Shown here: piece after piece, positions 1 to 4,332 of the stretch
Position numbering within the stretch: position 1 is the stretch's first letter
Layout of the letters: the number at the start of each line of letters is the position of its first letter
Virus record (IMG/VR): IMGVR_UViG_3300023488_000045
Span: 1-4,530 of that record
DNA from: a virus
Lineage: Duplodnaviria; Heunggongvirae; Uroviricota; Caudoviricetes
Length of the DNA stretch: 4,530 nucleotides
Strand: one strand, 5' to 3'
Position numbers and translations under genes: made by a program
The notes under the pieces: model-generated
What the model was told of the DNA's origin: nothing
What the model saw: only the letters and a program-made list of their open reading frames with translations
The model's database searches: none

Positions 1-116
1 GCGTCCAGCGATGTCAGTGCAATCCGTGCAAGTTCCATTTGTTCGCCACGGGTAAGTCCGTTATCAAGCGGATTTTTAATGAATAATTCGATACGTTCTT
101 TGGTTATAGCGCTCAT
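1..116 (-). CDS. hypothetical protein, 5' portion only (gene runs off the window at position 1)
   Basis: ATG at 116..114 on the minus strand, preceded by AAGGAG (128..123) with a 6-nt spacer. Frame is open to position 1, giving MSAITKERIELFIKNPLDNGLTRGEQMELARIALTSLD... Start lies 2 nt past the TGA (120..118) of the upstream gene. Absent from the ORF track because it is truncated. No family recognised. Confidence 0.4.
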   Translation of the reverse strand, partial: MSAITKERIELFIKNPLDNGLTRGEQMELARIALTSLD

Positions 117-117
117 A

Positions 118-609
118 TCACTCTCCTTTGATGCGAATGCCAGTGGCGCGTGGCACATTAACTTCCACGATGCGCACTGTTGGTTTGTACATCTCAATCG
201 CTGTCAGCCAGTCAGCTCCTGTCATGCGCTTTTCCGCATCGCCATTAGTCCACTGAACCGGTACGCCAATAGCCTTCATCGCGATTTCTATTTCCCCGGC
301 AATGGCGCTTTTTCCGCAACCAGTAAAACCAGAAACAACGACAAGAACTTCACCTTTGGCTGGTTTTATTTCCCGTGCTTCCAGTTCTGCAATGCGCTTT
401 TTGTCTGCTTCCCGTTCATCCAGTAGTGCCAGCACGGTTTCTGGTCCGGTCAGAAATTTGAAGGCGTTGAGCGCATCAATATCCACACCGTAATCTTTAA
501 GTTCCTGTTCACTTAACAAATCATCATCAACTGGCAACATTAACAGGCGTTCCATTGCTGGAGTTGCACGTTCTGCCGCATCTCGCAGTGCCTGATAGTC
601 AATTGTCAT
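118..609 (-). CDS. phage accessory protein: N-terminal coiled-coil region (KKRIAELEAREIK) plus C-terminal Walker-A/P-loop kinase-like fragment
   Basis: ORF track 118..618 (-). Preferred start is ATG 609..607, which overlaps the upstream TGA (608..606) as ATGA and has an AAGGA Shine-Dalgarno (622..618) 8 nt upstream; ATG 618 is the alternative. Protein contains a beta-strand-like EVLVVVS followed by GFTGCGKS (GxxxxGKS) and a helix-like AIAGEIEIAMKAIG, then a WTNGD loop. Only about 75 residues follow the P-loop, too few for a complete NTPase. Confidence 0.6.
   Translation of the reverse strand: MTIDYQALRDAAERATPAMERLLMLPVDDDLLSEQELKDYGVDIDALNAFKFLTGPETVLALLDEREADKKRIAELEAREIKPAKGEVLVVVSGFTGCGKSAIAGEIEIAMKAIGVPVQWTNGDAEKRMTGADWLTAIEMYKPTVRIVEVNVPRATGIRIKGE
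380..398 (-). repeat. 19-nt exact dispersed repeat tccagttctgcaatgcgct; second copy at 1542..1560
   Basis: Identical 19-mer in gene 118..609 and in Ea22-like paralog 1. Both encode KRIAELE on the minus strand within coiled-coil segments; flanks diverge. Confidence 0.85.
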
Positions 610-1250
610 TCTCGCCATCCTTCACAGTTGTAATCACTACAGCCTTCAAAATCATATGGGCTGTACTGCCAGGTTATTTTTCCGCAATGCGGACAATTCC
701 AACGCACCTTCCCGCTTCGCGACTTCTTTCTTCTGTTCTGCTCTTTCAACCAGTCAGGCATGACCAAACCTGCGCCCTGAACCATTGTTCTGCGGTTAAA
801 GTTATTGATATTGAACGTCCGGCGCTTTGCTGCATCAGCAATGGAAAATGACAACCAAACTATTCCTGGTTCGTTTTTGTTGACGACGCTAAAGATGGTC
901 GCTTTACTGAAGTCATCTGTTGGCAATCCACCGCGTTGAAGCCAGTAAACATCGTTGCCGTTCCAGCTACCTTTTTTGTAGGCCACATACTCAGTGCAAT
1001 CTGACTCAATCAGGCTTTCTGTAGGGATGTACTGGCAATCAACGTGCCACACAGCCATTGCATCCACACTATCGGCACAAACAGGCTGATCGATATCTCG
1101 CCCACAATTCCAGGCTTTTTGGGCTTCTTCCAGCGTGTAAATATGAGCGCGATCGATATCAGAACTGTAACCATTGCCGTTATGGCAATGGAATGAGGCG
1201 TTATTACCCACAGTTTCACGCAAGCACATCATGTAAAAGCGGTTATTCAC
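606..1250 (-). CDS. hypothetical Cys/Trp/His-rich protein with C-terminal zinc-ribbon-like motif (CPHC-x14-C-x4-C)
   Basis: ORF track 606..1250 (-), 214 aa. GTG start at 1250..1248 overlaps the TGA (1249..1247) of the upstream Ea22-like gene as GTGA. Strong AAGGAGG Shine-Dalgarno (1263..1257) with a 6-nt spacer. C-terminus NCPHCGKITWQYSPYDFEGCSDYNCEGW. Its stop overlaps the downstream start as ATGA. No family recognised from memory. Confidence 0.6.
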   Translation of the reverse strand: MNNRFYMMCLRETVGNNASFHCHNGNGYSSDIDRAHIYTLEEAQKAWNCGRDIDQPVCADSVDAMAVWHVDCQYIPTESLIESDCTEYVAYKKGSWNGNDVYWLQRGGLPTDDFSKATIFSVVNKNEPGIVWLSFSIADAAKRRTFNINNFNRRTMVQGAGLVMPDWLKEQNRRKKSRSGKVRWNCPHCGKITWQYSPYDFEGCSDYNCEGWRE

Positions 1251-1909
1251 TGGTTGCCTCCTTTGCGAAGCTGTTCAGCAATACTTACGCATATCTCTGC
1301 GCCTCTAATCAGCCCCGGAACGTTCTTGTTTGGCCCAACTTCACCATCAACAAAATCAATCATCGCGTTACGAGCCATATCCACCCCCTGCGCACGTACT
1401 TCAGCCAGGAGAGCGTCGGTAGCTGGGGTTTCCGTGAAGTTGTCCTCCCAACCGTAGTACTCCTGACGACAGAAGTTATTAAATTCCTTCTCCGACTGTT
1501 TAAGCGCCGCATTCTCCGCTGCCAGCGCCGTGCGTTCGCTCTCCAGTTCTGCAATGCGCTGTTTTGCGGCATCAAGTTCAATCGATAATTTTTCCAACTG
1601 CTCTTTATGCTTCTTGTATTCCTGATATGCGTGCCAGGACTGACCTTTGCGCACACTATCAGTAATATCAGTAATCTGTTCTGGTGTTAGCGTGGTCAGT
1701 GGCTGTGCTGGGAAAATCAGCACTTTCCCGGAATCCCAATCAAAACCAGCGTGAATTGACTGAACCTCAACTGAGGGTGTTGAACCAATGCTGCCAGGCG
1801 AATGAACAACGATCGTTACATCCATATCGCGACGATGGCTGTGGTTGTTGGACAAAATACGATTCAACAAAATACGATTCACCAACTCAGAAAATTTGGA
1901 GAATTTCAT
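1247..1909 (-). CDS. Ead/Ea22-like family protein (paralog 1)
   Basis: ORF track 1247..1921 (-); the track start is a TTG, and the first ATG is at 1909..1907 with a GAGG Shine-Dalgarno 6 nt upstream. Central coiled coil AKQRIAELESERTALAAENAALKQ and the motif ETPATDALLAEVRAQGV, which I recognise as typical of lambdoid Ead/Ea22-like proteins. C-terminus AEQLRKGGNQ is homologous to paralog 2. Confidence 0.7.
   Translation of the reverse strand: MKFSKFSELVNRILLNRILSNNHSHRRDMDVTIVVHSPGSIGSTPSVEVQSIHAGFDWDSGKVLIFPAQPLTTLTPEQITDITDSVRKGQSWHAYQEYKKHKEQLEKLSIELDAAKQRIAELESERTALAAENAALKQSEKEFNNFCRQEYYGWEDNFTETPATDALLAEVRAQGVDMARNAMIDFVDGEVGPNKNVPGLIRGAEICVSIAEQLRKGGNQ
1257..1263 (-). promoter_or_regulatory. 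Shine-Dalgarno AAGGAGG for the GTG-initiated gene 606..1250, embedded in the last codons of the upstream Ea22-like gene
   Basis: AAGGAGG on the minus strand, 6-nt spacer to GTG 1250. Confidence 0.6.
1259..1280 (-). repeat. conserved junction motif at the 3' end of both Ea22-like genes (second copy 2336..2357, 20/22 identical)
   Basis: ctcctttgcgaagctgttcagc versus ctcctttgcgaatctgttccgc. On the minus strand this encodes AEQ(L/I)RKG and contains the AAAGGAG Shine-Dalgarno serving the GTG start of the downstream gene in both cases (GTGA overlap at 1250 and 2328). Confidence 0.8.
1853..1882 (-). repeat. 15-bp tandem direct repeat x2 (caaaatacgattcaa / caaaatacgattcac) inside the Ea22-like paralog 1 N-terminus
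   Basis: Read directly: 1853..1867 and 1868..1882 are identical except for the last base. In frame (5 codons each), giving NRILL-NRILS in the protein. Confidence 0.8.
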
Positions 1910-1917
1910 GCGGAGCC

Positions 1918-2328
1918 TCAATATGCAAAATAGACCGTTGCCACGCCGTTATAGTGATCAAACGATACGGCGTTTACTTCATAACTGGCCGGGAGCTTCG
2001 AGCCAAGAACGTATCCGGGCCACGTTTTCCATGGAATTTCTCTATTCTCACTACCCCCATATACCGTACATCCAAGTGAACCTACAGCTTCATTAGAACG
2101 CGTGCCGCACGTTATGAATCCCAGATTTTGCTTACTGCTCTTAATGGTGATTGAGTGAACGCTGGCTGATGCATTAGCAGCACGCTGTGCCTGTTGGTTT
2201 GCGATATTCGCAGAGTTCGCAGCAGCTACAGCAGCCGTAGTCGCGGCGGTAGAGGCTACAATAGCTGCTGAAGCATGCACTTGTTGGATATTCACCAACA
2301 ATGCCGCGACAAAAATCATCTTCTTCAC
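1918..2328 (-). CDS. predicted secreted/periplasmic protein with Sec-type signal peptide, Ala/Thr-rich linker and two-Cys C-terminal domain; function unknown
   Basis: ORF track 1918..2328 (-), 136 aa. GTG start 2328..2326 overlaps the upstream TGA (2327..2325) as GTGA; AGGAG Shine-Dalgarno 7 nt upstream; alternative ATG at 2319. N-terminus [22 protein letters not shown] has a basic n-region, hydrophobic core and AXA-like cleavage site (VHA). Mature part is a low-complexity Ala/Thr/Asn stretch followed by a roughly 80-aa domain with two Cys, ending YFAY. Confidence 0.6.
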   Translation of the reverse strand: MKKMIFVAALLVNIQQVHASAAIVASTAATTAAVAAANSANIANQQAQRAANASASVHSITIKSSKQNLGFITCGTRSNEAVGSLGCTVYGGSENREIPWKTWPGYVLGSKLPASYEVNAVSFDHYNGVATVYFAY

Positions 2329-2855
2329 TTGTCAGCTCCTTTGCGAATCTGTTCCGCCCATTCTTCAAGGGATTTCTCCGCATATTCACCGGACAGGCCA
2401 TCAATCGGGTGCGGTTCATTAGCTAACTCTTCTTTCGCTGACAGAATCATGCGTGTAACGTCGAAAACTTCACGTAAAGACTTATTGATAAATCCGTGAT
2501 TGAACGCAGCAGCAAGACGGCTGGCGGTATAGTTAATCCCCTCGTTGCGTGCTTCCGCACGAATTTCAGCAAGGAAAGCATCGGTGGCGGGAGTTTCGCT
2601 GTGGTGCAGGGCATCGTTGATAATCATTGCAGCAACACCAGCCTGCCCTGCATCCGTGACCGACACATGCTCAAGAGTTACGACCATTGCGTGTTTCAGC
2701 CCAGCATTCTCCGCCGCCAGCGCCGCGCACTTGGCCTCCGCTTCAGCAAATTTACGCACCAGATATTCAGCGTTTGTTTCGTTAACCTTTAAATCTCGTG
2801 GGATGCATTTACCTTTCAGAAATCCATCCATCTCAATTAGTGACATTTGTTTCAT
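2325..2855 (-). CDS. Ead/Ea22-like family protein (paralog 2)
   Basis: ORF track 2325..2873 (-), which begins at a GTG. Preferred start is ATG 2855..2853, overlapping the TGA (2854..2852) of the upstream small ORF as ATGA. Contains [11 protein letters not shown] and [16 protein letters not shown], and a C-terminal [10 protein letters not shown]; homologous to paralog 1 at protein and nucleotide level. Confidence 0.7.
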
Positions 2856-3016
2856 TTCTTCCCACTCCGCCACATCGCATTCAGATATTTGTTGTCATTA
2901 ACAGAACCGAAACTCTTTCTCTTAAGCAATTCCTCTCTCGATGGCATTGGCTTTACGCGTTGGCGAATAATCATTTCTGCCGGAAGAATGCCGGGATTGT
3001 ATGCAAGTCCTCTCAT
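2852..3016 (-). CDS. small basic hypothetical protein (54 aa)
   Basis: In-frame part of track ORF 2852..3166 (which begins at a TTG at 3166 and overlaps the 97-aa gene out of frame). ATG 3016..3014 is preceded by TGAGGAA with a 6-nt spacer, and that Shine-Dalgarno overlaps the TGA of the 97-aa gene. Its own stop overlaps the ATG of Ea22-like paralog 2 as ATGA. Product [54 protein letters not shown]. Alternative ATGs at 3049 and 3034 lack a Shine-Dalgarno. Confidence 0.35.
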
Positions 3017-3343: not shown

Positions 3344-3727
3344 TCAGAATGGGATGGAATCGTCGTATACAGGAGTGTTCTGCTGGTTACTACTTTGCTG
3401 CTGCGGGCCATTTCCTGAAGCTGCAAATCCAATCTTTGCATTCAGTAATTCAAGAGTGATTGATTGACCATTTTGCCCCTGATAAACATCAACCCTGATG
3501 TTTTCTCCGGTAATTTCCACAATGCCACCTTCAACAAGAACACTACGGTAGTAATCCGCTTGCGCTCCCGGCTTGGCAAATACAACGGCGCTGTAGTTTG
3601 TCCATTCTTTCTTTTTTGTCTGGCGATCGTAATACTGAACGCCAGCACGGATGTTGAATCCGATATTTTCCACGGCCTGAAACTCTCTTGCGGGCTTGTT
3701 TAGTCTTACAGTAATCGAATGTGCCAT
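3344..3727 (-). CDS. ssb: single-stranded DNA-binding protein (phage SSB-like, short form)
   Basis: ORF track 3344..3727 (-), 127 aa. ATG 3727..3725 overlaps the erf TAA (3729..3727) as TAATG; AAGGAG Shine-Dalgarno lies inside the erf 3' end. OB-fold-like core (YSAVVFAKPGAQADYYRSVLVEGGIVEITGENIRVDVYQGQNGQSITLEL), Gly/Gln-rich linker, and acidic-aromatic tip YDDSIPF resembling the canonical SSB DDDIPF tail. Confidence 0.75.
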   Translation of the reverse strand: MAHSITVRLNKPAREFQAVENIGFNIRAGVQYYDRQTKKKEWTNYSAVVFAKPGAQADYYRSVLVEGGIVEITGENIRVDVYQGQNGQSITLELLNAKIGFAASGNGPQQQSSNQQNTPVYDDSIPF

Positions 3728-4332
3728 TAAGCAGCAGCTCCTTCTAATTCGTCTCGTCTGATGTTGTAAACGTCCTGCGCTTTGTGCTGCTCAGGTGTGC
3801 CTTCGAGCATCTTCCACGCTTTGGCGAACGCCTGTTTAAGCTCTTCTACGGTGTTTTTCTGCATTGCTGCGTCAGTGAATGCTTTTAGAACCTGTTCAGG
3901 TGTAGGTGATGGTTTTGATTGCTTTGCTGCTGCGTTCTGCTGATGTTTATGCTCGTCTGTATCTGCATCTTTCGCATCATCAATGCCGAACAAACCATTG
4001 AGGCAATACTTGCGTGCATAAGAGCTTGTAGCTCCCGTAACTTGTGCAGAATCCATTCCTTTCTTGCTTTCTTCCTCTCGTGCAAGAGCGGTTGCCGTAT
4101 GGCTGTTTTCGCCATCGGTAATAGTTGCCGTGGCTTTCACGTAATACCGATCACCAATCAACACAACTTCATCGCTGATTGATAAAAACAGACCATTCAG
4201 TAACGGCTTAACGCCTTCAAGAATATCTTCGCAGCTTCTGTATTTATATTTACCGAATGAGTTGTACTGATTCTTTGGCGCGTTCAGATTCTCCTGAATA
4301 GCTGCCAGTCTTGCGTAAAATTCTTTGCTCAT
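3727..4332 (-). CDS. erf: Erf-family single-strand annealing protein (essential recombination function)
   Basis: ORF track 3727..4362 (-), whose first codon is a TTG. Preferred start is ATG 4332..4330 (MSKEFYARLAAIQENLNAPKNQYNSFGKYKYRSCEDILEGVKPLL...), which I recognise as closely resembling the phage P22 Erf N-terminal domain. About 201 aa. Followed by a translationally coupled ssb. Confidence 0.85.
   Translation of the reverse strand: MSKEFYARLAAIQENLNAPKNQYNSFGKYKYRSCEDILEGVKPLLNGLFLSISDEVVLIGDRYYVKATATITDGENSHTATALAREEESKKGMDSAQVTGATSSYARKYCLNGLFGIDDAKDADTDEHKHQQNAAAKQSKPSPTPEQVLKAFTDAAMQKNTVEELKQAFAKAWKMLEGTPEQHKAQDVYNIRRDELEGAAA

What the first reader, a model, noticed from the sequence alone, without database searches (positions are those of the whole stretch)
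380..398. Exact 19-nt block shared between the P-loop-fragment gene and Ea22-like paralog 1 (second copy 1542..1560)
tccagttctgcaatgcgct occurs in both genes and encodes KRIAELE within coiled coils, while the flanks diverge. Exact nucleotide identity in otherwise different genes points to recent recombination or module shuffling of coiled-coil segments rather than convergent protein similarity. It supports reading gene 118..609 as a chimeric Ea22-related derivative.
Basis: seen in the sequence. Interest (0 to 1): 0.35.

Follow-up and report, generated by a model that had tools for sequence, protein, structure and literature searches.

The report
Shared recombination joint in Ea22 genes
The 19-base repeat is real: it is the conserved joint at which a family of prophage genes (Ea22-like) exchange their front and back halves, which makes it an ordinary but unusually well-resolved example of phage gene shuffling.

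Summary
Observation confirmed. TCCAGTTCTGCAATGCGCT occurs exactly at 380-398 and 1542-1560. It is the longest exact repeat in the window, and none of 200 shuffles reproduced it.

Both copies lie on the minus strand, in the same codon phase, in two Ea22-family genes. They encode (K)RIAELE in gene A (118..618) and (Q)RIAELE in gene B (1247..1909).

The block is not private to this pair. In IMG/VR the same 19-mer joins about 27 unrelated N-terminal-side sequences to about 20 unrelated C-terminal-side sequences, in 45 combinations. These include 17 cases where all four combinations of two N classes and two C classes exist. A control 19-mer 62 nt away has 2 x 1 flank classes.

Homology breakpoints in other phages and E. 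coli genomes pile up at 399 and 409. In lambda Ea22 the motif ends at residue 101, exactly where the published variable C-terminal domain begins.

Gene A is therefore a chimera: an Ead/Ea22 N-domain, the joint, and a swappable 75-aa domain cassette. The cassette's 3' end is a second conserved block (118-144), which also explains the puzzling "+GE" tail of Ea22 proteins as a ribosome-binding site for the next gene.

Module shuffling is supported. A recent exchange between these two particular genes is not shown.

The parts
380..398 (-). Copy A of the 19-nt block (joint J2) in gene A. It covers codons K74 (positions 2-3), R, I, A, E, L and E80 (positions 1-2), numbered from the ATG at 618.
   Evidence: Homology of the C-terminal cassette to 50 of 80 independent loci starts exactly here. 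There are 68 megablast endpoints at 399.
1542..1560 (-). Copy B of the 19-nt block in gene B, encoding Q-RIAELE in the middle of a longer coiled coil.
   Evidence: Breakpoints of gene-B relatives in E. coli genomes fall at query positions 282-323, around the block at query 296-314. Relatives show a junction inside the block (L333) and a 1-nt variant (L335).
118..618 (-). Gene A (166 aa; the ATG at 609, which overlaps the upstream stop as ATGA, is the more likely start). It consists of an Ead/Ea22 N-domain, a short coil and a Walker-A-motif C-terminal domain.
   Evidence: PF13935, E=1.8e-18; phrog_250, phrog_368, phrog_11761.
409..423 (-). Joint J1, CTGGATGAACGGGAA (LDERE), at the end of the N-domain. 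It lies 10 nt from J2.
   Evidence: N-module homology ends at gene nt 210 (window 409) in 60 of 80 loci. There are 107 endpoints at 409. The 15-mer joins 9 upstream classes to 6 downstream classes.
145..379 (-). C-terminal domain cassette: a mini-domain of about 75 aa with GFTGCGKS, NGDxEK, HADW and YKPxVxIVE motifs.
   Evidence: E. coli hits span 110-399, 114-399 and 122-387.
118..144 (-). Joint J3: the conserved 3' block GGCATTCGCATCAAAGGAGAG-TGA, which encodes GIRIKGE* and contains the Shine-Dalgarno site for the next gene (ATG at 116).
   Evidence: identity is at least 0.9 from -24 to +3 of the stop between genes with unrelated C-terminal domains and unrelated downstream genes. One search shows endpoints at 110-122 and 146-152.
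1247..1909 (-). Gene B (220 aa from the ATG at 1909): a phrog_6026-type N-domain, a coiled coil and a phrog_368-type C-terminal domain.
1497..1554 (-). Second conserved coil block (ALAAENAALK) of gene B, 78% identical to 2692-2749 in the third paralog. It overlaps the 19-mer by 13 nt.
   Evidence: D3. Gene-B relatives break here at query 254-266.
2325..2873 (-). Third Ea22-family paralog (182 aa). Its diverged counterpart of the block is at 2737-2755 (RKFAEAE, 10/19 nt).
   Evidence: HK97-type homology starts at 2742/2743. HK97 gp37 has RKFGELE at this position followed by a 21-aa longer coil.
1..116 (-). Start of a fourth Ea22/Ead-type gene, cut by the window edge. Relatives continue into ...LEAAEKRIAELE.
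3727..4332 (-). erf, a Rad52-like single-strand annealing recombinase encoded in the same operon. It is a candidate catalyst of the exchanges; this is inferred.
   Evidence: (PF04404, E=2.4e-44), and the literature read.

Best explanation
The 19-mer is the best-conserved core of the last coiled-coil heptad (R-I-A-E-L-E) of Ead/Ea22-family proteins. These proteins are encoded in the early-left (erf/exo to xis) region of lambdoid and P22-like prophages and of phage-plasmids in Enterobacteriaceae.

The block acts as an in-frame, intragenic recombination joint. A large pool of otherwise unrelated N-terminal modules and C-terminal domain cassettes all carry this short stretch of near-identical DNA at the domain boundary. 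Homologous or 'relaxed' homologous recombination through it re-assorts the halves, and it does so without breaking the reading frame or the fold. The same exchanges keep the block young and homogeneous relative to its flanks. The likely catalysts are phage Rad52-like annealases such as the Erf encoded 3.3 kb upstream, or RecA.

In gene A the C-terminal cassette (145-379) is bracketed by this joint (380-398) and by a second conserved block at the stop codon (118-144). The second block doubles as the ribosome-binding site of the next gene. A third joint (LDERE, 409-423) lies 10 nt upstream of the first.

The two copies in this window are two members of that pool sitting in tandem. They need not have exchanged with each other.

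Shown here: the identity, the frame, family membership of gene A, the reticulate module combinations, the breakpoint clustering, and the coincidence with the published domain boundary. Inferred: that crossovers occur by homology within the block, and which enzyme performs them.
For: (1) Exact repeat, longest in the window, 0 of 200 shuffles.

(2) Both genes belong to the Ea22 pool. Gene A hits PF13935. Genes A, B and the third paralog all hit phrog_368. A (aa 61 onward) and B (aa 108 onward) align to the same profile position of phrog_11761, which puts the two motifs in register.

(3) An IMG/VR scan for the 19-mer gave 116-118 usable copies. Proximal flanks fall into 19-20 x 24 classes, distal flanks into 27 x 20 classes, with 45 combinations and 17 module 'squares' in which all four combinations exist. 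A control 19-mer inside the cassette gave 2 x 1 classes in 100 loci.

(4) Samples drawn without reference to the block. In 80 loci found through the C-terminal domain, homology to the window starts at the block's 5' edge in 50. At least 15 unrelated upstream sequences are present, and 75 of 80 are joined through RIAELE. Of 79 genes found through the N-domain, 64 have the motif and it is joined to at least 19 C-terminal classes. At protein level there are at least 22 upstream contexts, 87 of 105 joined via KRIAELE.

(5) Synonymous sites are nearly fixed. Only ATT/ATA, CGC/CGT and GCA/GCT variants occur at the Ile, Arg and Ala codons in these genes, and no ATC, GCG or GCC codons were seen there. 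Two independent encodings of RIAEL would coincide with P = 0.002-0.004. Unrelated RIAEL-coding genes in the same loci use other codons.

(6) Pairwise identity between copies with unrelated distal flanks is 1.0 across the block. It falls to background within about 10 nt on the C-terminal side and about 30 nt on the N-terminal side.

(7) Megablast endpoints peak at 399 and 409 and, for gene B, around its copy.

(8) Lambda Ea22 has KRIAKLE at residues 95-101. The published start of the dissimilar C-terminal domain is residue 102 (PMC7093339). Ea22 genes are described as mosaic with variable C-terminal domains (PMC10834534).

(9) Rad52-like recombinases, Erf included, recombine short and diverged phage sequences efficiently (PMC3945230). 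An erf gene lies in the window.
Against: Nineteen bases (about 50 nt with the degenerate shoulder) is short for homologous recombination. The cited experiments used substrates whose longest perfect stretch was 49 bp or more, so efficiency at this length is inferred.

IMG/VR contigs are redundant, so counts are contigs rather than independent events.

Fifteen of 79 N-domain-ascertained genes lack the motif and are joined elsewhere in the coil, so the block is a preferred joint, not the only one.

RIAEL[ED] is a common helical peptide. The exact 19-mer occurs, always in this frame, in 46 unrelated bacterial genes across 596 Gb, so protein constraint plus codon preference contributes to its conservation.

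Illegitimate recombination followed by selection for joints at a domain boundary would give a similar breakpoint map.
Confidence: 0.7

Rival explanations
1. A recent, direct exchange (gene conversion or crossover) between gene A and gene B inside this prophage copied the block from one to the other.
For: The two copies are exactly identical and are direct repeats 1162 nt apart in one operon. Gene B's closest N-side relative carries a 1-nt variant (GAG for GAA; L335). Genes with B-type ALAAENA coils usually have more diverged versions of the block (GAG CTT, class C15).
Against: The identity stops at 19 nt, with only 82% over 39 nt. The exact 19-mer is the commonest allele family-wide: 26 of 64 motif-bearing genes in the N-domain set, 22 of 80 in the C-terminal-domain set, and present with about 20 C-terminal classes. 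Each gene could therefore have inherited it independently. A 1-nt difference from L335 is equally well explained by a point mutation.
Confidence: 0.1
2. Illegitimate (non-homologous) recombination creates joints everywhere, and selection keeps only those at the coil/C-terminal-domain boundary. Under this view the block is simply the conserved end of one module and has no role in the exchange itself.
For: Breakpoints coincide with a structural domain boundary. Some genes are joined at other coil positions without the motif. One class joins the cassette just after the block, with no RIAELE (SGQE|AREIKP).
Against: Both sides vary around the same block. The cassette has at least 15-22 N-side partners, and single N-modules have up to 6 C-side partners, with 17 four-way squares. 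Breakpoints from the two directions stop at opposite edges of the same conserved stretch, 399 versus 409. Experiments found illegitimate recombination much rarer than recombinase-dependent exchange between phages (PMC3945230).
Confidence: 0.13
3. Vertical descent from an old duplication, with the block preserved because the nucleotide sequence itself is a functional element (an RNA or DNA site). No recombination is involved.
For: Synonymous positions are far more conserved than codon usage predicts.
Against: Module combinations are reticulate. Synonymous variants (ATA, CGT, GCT) are common and are spread across module classes. There is no Rfam family, promoter-like or terminator-like site at either copy. 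The block is always in the same coding frame.
Confidence: 0.05
4. Chance or convergence: two coiled coils independently encode RIAELE with favoured codons.
For: The peptide is common, and the very same 19-mer has arisen in 46 unrelated bacterial genes, all in this frame.
Against: That background amounts to 7.7e-11 per bp, or 3.5e-7 per window. P(same codons | same peptide) is 0.002-0.004. The two motifs are in register in homologous family profiles. Similarity extends to 39 nt.
Confidence: 0.02

Closest known systems
Lambda Ea22 and the Ead/Ea22-like family (Pfam PF13935), the pro-lysogenic early-left gene of lambdoid and Stx phages
   Same: The genomic position is the same, between the recombination genes and xis/int. 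The architecture is the same: variable N-region, central coiled coil, variable C-terminal domain, and a +GE tail. Lambda has KRIAKLE at residues 95-101, immediately before its C-terminal domain. The literature already calls these genes mosaic at protein level.
   Different: Gene A has a much shorter coil: it lacks about 26 aa of the common RNQQ...LRVELE segment. Its C-terminal domain carries a Walker-A motif and is unrelated in sequence to the solved lambda C-terminal domain. Gene B does not reach the Pfam threshold. The nucleotide-level joints J1, J2 and J3 are not described in the papers read.
Short conserved boundary ('linker') sequences at mosaic junctions of lambdoid phages, and relaxed homologous recombination by Rad52-like recombinases. 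Sources: modular-evolution theory (Susskind and Botstein; HK97/HK022/HK620 comparisons), from my own knowledge; De Paepe et al. 2014, PMC3945230, read.
   Same: Short stretches of identity are flanked by unrelated DNA. Homology breakpoints coincide with them. A phage-encoded annealase (erf) is present in the same genome.
   Different: The joint here lies inside a gene, in frame, at a protein domain boundary, and is only 19-24 nt long. Classic examples are mostly at gene boundaries. J3 is of that classic kind.
C-terminal cassette exchange in polymorphic toxins, such as CdiA-CT after the VENN motif and Rhs-CT after PxxxxDPxGL (from my own knowledge)
   Same: A short conserved peptide or DNA motif marks the point after which unrelated C-terminal domains are interchangeable on a constant scaffold.
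   Different: There is no evidence of toxicity, secretion or a cognate immunity gene. The genes downstream of the cassette are variable and unrelated. Here the N-terminal part is exchangeable too.
Mosaic phage tail-fibre genes with conserved recombination segments (from my own knowledge)
   Same: Intragenic domain swapping occurs through conserved stretches in elongated, oligomeric, repeat-like protein regions that tolerate in-frame joints.
   Different: These are non-structural early genes of unknown biochemical function, not host-range determinants.

Membership tests
Ead/Ea22-like family (PF13935) | Match to the family HMM above the gathering score | tested here: met
   Gene A scores 67.9 bits against a cut-off of 27, E=1.8e-18, aa 5-82. 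Proteins with its C-terminal domain are named ead/Ea22-like by NCBI.
Ead/Ea22-like family (PF13935) | The same HMM match for gene B (1247..1921) and the third paralog (2325..2873) | tested here: not met
   No PF13935 hit at E<=0.01. Both match phrog_368, which gene A's N-domain also matches. Close relatives are annotated ead/Ea22-like in RefSeq. They are therefore tied to the family through the coil and C-terminal modules only.
Ead/Ea22-like family (PF13935) | Variable N-region + central coiled coil + variable C-terminal domain, in the early-left operon of a lambdoid prophage | tested here: met
   The neighbours are erf, abc2 and an ssb-like gene. There is synteny with HK633, CUS-3 and HK97. 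The motif aligns with lambda Ea22 residues 95-101. The architecture matches the literature. Coiled-coil character is taken from the literature; the only helix prediction made here was of low confidence.
Ead/Ea22-like family (PF13935) | C-terminal K/R-G-E tail | tested here: met
   Gene A ends in IRIKGE. Gene B ends in LRKGGNQ and the third paralog in IRKGADK, which are variants. Of 132 distinct 3' ends of block-bearing genes, 78 end in KGE.
Ead/Ea22-like family (PF13935) | Pro-lysogenic activity and tetrameric assembly | not testable with these tools
   Known only from experiments on lambda, phi24B and P27 Ea22.
Mosaic recombination joint (conserved boundary sequence) of lambdoid phages | A short conserved sequence flanked on both sides by unrelated sequences in different genomes | tested here: met
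   The control 19-mer shows the opposite pattern.
Mosaic recombination joint (conserved boundary sequence) of lambdoid phages | Pairwise homology breakpoints cluster at the sequence | tested here: met
   (399 x68, 409 x107).
Mosaic recombination joint (conserved boundary sequence) of lambdoid phages | Reticulate module combinations (all four combinations present) | tested here: met
   17 module squares using distal flanks.
Mosaic recombination joint (conserved boundary sequence) of lambdoid phages | Crossovers demonstrably resolved within the sequence and dependent on a recombinase | not testable with these tools
   This needs phage crosses. It is supported only indirectly by PMC3945230.
P-loop NTPase (for the C-terminal domain of gene A) | Walker A motif GxxxxGK[ST] | tested here: met
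   GFTGCGKS is present. G16, T18, G19, K22 and S23 are invariant in 95 homologues down to 54% identity.
P-loop NTPase (for the C-terminal domain of gene A) | Match to a P-loop family profile, or a P-loop alpha/beta fold | tested here: not met
   There is no Pfam hit. NCBIfam gives only adenylyl-sulfate kinase at 15.8 bits against a cut-off of 163. The AF2 model has pLDDT 82.3, with no DSSP strands and no Foldseek match at E<=0.001 in PDB or BFVD. The domain is only about 75 aa.
Polymorphic-toxin-type C-terminal cassette system | A cognate immunity gene immediately downstream, and a delivery or secretion domain | tested here: inconclusive
   Downstream genes are translationally coupled but differ between loci that carry the same cassette. 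There are no PADLOC or Pfam hits. Toxicity was not testable.

The most novel reading that the evidence does not exclude
Ea22-family genes may be a prophage 'polymorphic effector' system. Under this reading a constant oligomerising coiled-coil scaffold displays interchangeable C-terminal effector cassettes. The cassettes are bracketed by two dedicated DNA joints: the RIAELE block at the 5' end and the IRIKGE/Shine-Dalgarno block at the 3' end. The nucleotide sequence of the joints would be maintained by second-order selection for recombinability. Tandem paralogs, as in this window, would serve as an on-board cassette library that the phage's own Erf re-assorts.
Probability: 0.2. Interest if true: 0.6.

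Novelty: new member of a known kind. Interest (0 to 1): 0.4.

Why it matters
The result turns a vague statement in the literature ('ea22 genes are mosaic') into a base-pair-resolution map. There are three short conserved joints (409-423, 380-398, 118-144), and they define an exchangeable C-terminal domain cassette.

This gives a directly testable substrate for asking how short a homology phage annealases can use in nature.

It also offers a simple explanation for the conserved '+GE' tail of Ea22 proteins, whose significance was reported as unknown. The tail is the coding image of a conserved boundary block that carries the ribosome-binding site of the next, translationally coupled gene.

For annotation, 'ead/Ea22-like' proteins should be treated as combinations of independent modules, not as orthologues.

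The analysis also exposes an unannotated, widespread 75-aa domain with a Walker-A motif.

Tried and rejected
I used module-ascertained sets instead.
- The species-representative genome scan did not give the taxonomic range of the joint. Only 1 of its 47 hits was in an Ea22 context. It was useful as a convergence control.
- Single-sequence AF2 of gene A gave pLDDT 41.8 and was discarded.
- PDB sequence searches for genes A and B gave nothing significant.
- NCBIfam and PADLOC gave nothing above threshold.
- Rfam and the promoter/terminator scans found nothing at either copy, so a nucleotide-level regulatory element was set aside.
- Foldseek of the confident C-terminal-domain model found no relatives, so 'P-loop NTPase fragment' is not adopted.
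- I looked for the predicted in-frame deletion product between the two copies (B N-side + RIAELE + A cassette) among 80 cassette-bearing loci and did not find it.
- A literature search for earlier descriptions of intragenic joints in lambdoid phages returned nothing specific.

Full report
**1. The observation**

TCCAGTTCTGCAATGCGCT occurs exactly twice, at 380-398 and 1542-1560. There are no further hits at up to 2 mismatches, and none of 200 dinucleotide-preserving shuffles gave two copies. It is the longest exact repeat in the window and cannot be extended. About 3.7e-5 such pairs are expected under a uniform model. Ungapped similarity continues only on one side: 380-418 versus 1542-1580 is 39 nt at 82%.

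All genes in the window run on the minus strand. The two copies are in the same codon phase. Copy A reads AAG CGC ATT GCA GAA CTG GAA, which is K RIAELE. Copy B reads CAG CGC ATT GCA GAA CTG GAG, which is Q RIAELE. The shared peptide is therefore RIAELE, a small correction to the finding. BLASTP sees only 9/14 identities around it.

**2. The setting**

The window is the early-left region of a lambdoid/P22-like prophage. Reading in the direction of transcription it contains a small recombination-associated gene, erf (PF04404), an ssb-like gene and abc2 (PF11043), followed by three tandem Ea22-type genes interleaved with two unrelated ORFs, and then the first 116 nt of a fourth Ea22-type gene.

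No phage record covers 80% of the window. Matches to HK633, CUS-3, HK97 and the Stx phages are patchwork.

Gene A (118..618) matches Pfam Ead_Ea22 over aa 5-82 at 67.9 bits against a cut-off of 27. Gene B and the third paralog do not reach the Pfam threshold. However, all three hit phrog_368. Gene A from aa 61 and gene B from aa 108 align to the same position of phrog_11761, which places the two RIAELE motifs in register.

**3. The block is a family-wide joint, not a private match**

Clustering the 60 nt on either side at 80% identity gave 20 C-terminal-side classes and 24 N-terminal-side classes in 45 combinations. Using distal flanks only gave 27 x 20 classes, 45 combinations, and 17 'squares' in which all four combinations of two N classes and two C classes exist. 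That pattern cannot arise on a tree without recombination between the flanks.

As a control, a 19-mer 62 nt away inside the cassette (300-318) was found in 100 loci with 2 x 1 flank classes.

Between copies whose distal flanks are unrelated, identity is 1.0 over the block. It decays to background within about 10 nt on the C-terminal side. On the N-terminal side there is a shoulder of about 30 nt at 50-80% identity, corresponding to the LEAAEK heptad.

**4. Samples drawn without reference to the block**

Eighty loci were found through the C-terminal domain of gene A.
- Homology to gene A starts exactly at the 5' edge of the block in 50 of them; only 3 are colinear throughout.
- The domain is preceded by at least 15 unrelated sequences, and 75 of 80 are joined through RIAELE.
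- The exact 19-mer is present in 22, an ATA variant in 32, and other 1-2-nt synonymous variants in most of the rest.

Eighty loci were found through the N-domain.
- Homology ends at gene nt 210 (window 409) in 60.
- 64 of 79 complete genes carry the motif, 26 of them with the exact 19-mer. It is joined to at least 19 C-terminal classes.
- 15 lack the motif and are joined elsewhere in the coil.

At protein level, 296 clusters at 90% identity carry the same C-terminal domain at 93% identity or more. They come from E. coli, E. albertii, Shigella, Salmonella and Citrobacter. They show at least 22 upstream contexts, and 87 of 105 are joined via KRIAELE.

**5. Breakpoints**

Megablast endpoints of the window against all fetched loci peak at gene ends and, inside gene A, at 399 (68 endpoints) and 409 (107 endpoints). 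The same endpoints recur in E. coli genomes and in phages, with hits spanning 110-399, 114-399, 122-387 and 409-604.

For gene B, E. coli relatives break at query positions 282-323, around its copy at query 296-314. They also break at query 254-266, in the neighbouring ALAAENA block. Individual relatives illustrate this:
- L333 has a junction inside the block.
- L332 is joined in the ALAAENA block.
- L335 carries a 1-nt variant of the block.

The third paralog has a diverged counterpart of the block, RKFAEAE at 2737-2755. HK97-type homology starts there, at 2742/2743. HK97 gp37 reads RKFGELE followed by a coil 21 aa longer.

**6. Descent versus convergence**

Given local codon usage, two independent encodings of RIAEL would coincide with P = 0.002-0.004. 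In Ea22-type genes the Ile, Ala and Arg codons show only ATT/ATA, GCA/GCT and CGC/CGT. No ATC, GCG or GCC codons were seen there. Unrelated RIAEL-coding genes in the same loci use other codons.

Convergence is nevertheless possible in principle. The exact 19-mer occurs in 47 stretches of the 596-Gb species-representative collection. Forty-six of these are in unrelated taxa and proteins, and all are in this reading frame. That is a rate of 7.7e-11 per bp, far too low to explain two copies in one 4.5-kb window.

**7. Agreement with what is known**

Ea22 is described as a variable N-region, a central coiled coil and a variable C-terminal domain, and Stx-phage ea22 genes are called mosaic (PMC10834534; PMC8614690). 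The C-terminal part is reported as dissimilar from residue 102 of lambda Ea22 (PMC7093339). Lambda Ea22 has KRIAKLE at residues 95-101. The block therefore ends exactly at the published domain boundary.

**8. A three-joint cassette**

Gene A contains two further conserved blocks.
- J1 (CTGGATGAACGGGAA, LDERE, 409-423) joins 9 N-domain classes to 6 coil classes and accounts for the endpoint at 409.
- J3 (GGCATTCGCATCAAAGGAGAG-TGA, 118-144) is at least 90% identical from -24 to +3 of the stop, between genes with unrelated C-terminal domains and unrelated downstream genes.

Of 132 distinct 3' ends of block-bearing genes, 78 end in KGE. Of the 89 [KR]G[EGAD] tails, 86 are followed by a start codon 1 nt after the stop or overlapping it. 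The AAGGAG inside J3 is therefore the Shine-Dalgarno site of the next gene. This explains the '+GE' tail, whose significance was reported as unknown.

The C-terminal domain cassette of gene A is thus 145-379, bracketed by J2 and J3.

**9. The C-terminal domain itself**

An exhaustive HMMER search found 447 clusters at 50% identity carrying this domain of about 75 aa. It lies at the C- or N-terminus of proteins 110-623 aa long. These proteins have no Pfam family other than Ead_Ea22 on the enterobacterial members. GxTGxGKS is invariant across them.

An alignment-based AF2 model is confident (pLDDT 82.3). It has no Foldseek match at E<=0.001 in PDB or BFVD. I therefore describe the domain as an unannotated mini-domain with a Walker-A motif, and not as a P-loop NTPase fragment.

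**10. Mechanism**

Shown: a short block that is nearly identical at the nucleotide level, in frame, at a domain boundary, with reticulate combinations and breakpoints on both of its edges.

Inferred: exchanges occur by homologous or relaxed homologous recombination within this block and its shoulder. The likely catalysts are phage Rad52-like annealases, which recombine short and diverged phage sequences far better than RecA (PMC3945230). An erf gene lies 3.3 kb upstream in the same operon. Repeated exchange would also homogenise the block, which explains its low synonymous diversity.

The coiled coil tolerates in-register joints. Unequal exchange between similar heptads would explain the coil-length differences seen in gene A (lacking about 26 aa) and in the third paralog compared with HK97 gp37 (lacking 21 aa).

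The main rival is illegitimate recombination filtered by selection. It cannot be excluded without experiments, but it fits less well the fact that both sides vary around one and the same stretch.

**11. Verdict**

The module-shuffling and chimera readings are supported. 'Recent recombination between these two genes' is not shown and is not needed. This is a well-resolved new example of a known phenomenon, with a modest bonus in the cassette architecture and the explanation of the +GE tail.

Noticed in passing
118-144 (also 1247-1273 and 2325-2351), minus strand: The conserved K/R-G-E tail of Ea22 proteins, whose significance the literature calls unknown, is the coding image of a conserved block of about 27 nt. 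The block contains AAGGAG, the Shine-Dalgarno site of the next, translationally coupled gene. It is also a mosaic boundary.
   Followed up: yes
409-423, minus strand: A second intragenic joint, CTGGATGAACGGGAA (LDERE), lies 10 nt from the 19-mer. It links 9 N-domain classes to 6 coil classes and explains the dominant homology endpoint at 409.
   Followed up: yes
145-379, minus strand: The C-terminal domain of gene A is a mini-domain of about 75 aa (GxTGxGKS, NGDxEK, HADW, YKPxVxIVE). It is present in 447 protein clusters at 50% identity, at either end of proteins 110-623 aa long, many of them high-GC. It has no Pfam family and no structural match for a confident AF2 model.
   Followed up: partly
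1852-1881: An exact 15-nt tandem duplication (ACAAAATACGATTCA x2) near the 5' end of gene B gives NRILL-NRILS. Relatives L333 and L334 have one copy; L335 has two.
   Followed up: partly
1-116, minus strand: This is the start of a fourth Ea22/Ead-type gene (MSAITKERIELFIKNPLDNGLTRGEQMELARIALTSLD...). Relatives continue into LEAAEKRIAELE, so a third copy or variant of the block probably lies just beyond the window edge. The HK633 homologue is annotated as DUF551.
   Followed up: partly
Species-representative genomes, loci L284-L330: The exact 19-mer occurs in 46 unrelated bacterial genes (LysR-type regulators, alphaproteobacterial porin-like proteins, recombinase coiled coils and others). It is always in the same frame, encoding xRIAEL[ED]. 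This is about 10 times the random expectation for a 19-mer and illustrates convergent reuse of a common helical peptide.
   Followed up: partly
1247-1921 and relatives: Most E. coli matches to gene B lie on plasmids of 86-147 kb (328 of 551 places), presumably phage-plasmids. The Ea22 module pool is therefore shared between integrated prophages and plasmid prophages.
   Followed up: no
2680-2800 versus HK97 gp37 (L424 483-1013); gene A versus loci L203-L282: Coil length varies by whole segments lying between similar heptads. The third paralog lacks 21 aa present in HK97 gp37, and gene A lacks about 26 aa of the common form. This is consistent with unequal exchange between heptad-coding repeats.
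   Followed up: partly
606-1250 and 1918-2328, minus strand: Two unrelated ORFs are interleaved with the Ea22 paralogs. One is a 214-aa protein (phrog_2457) ending in a CxxC...C zinc-ribbon-like motif. The other is a 136-aa protein (phrog_8805) with a signal-peptide-like N-terminus. Neither has a Pfam, NCBIfam or PADLOC hit.
   Followed up: no
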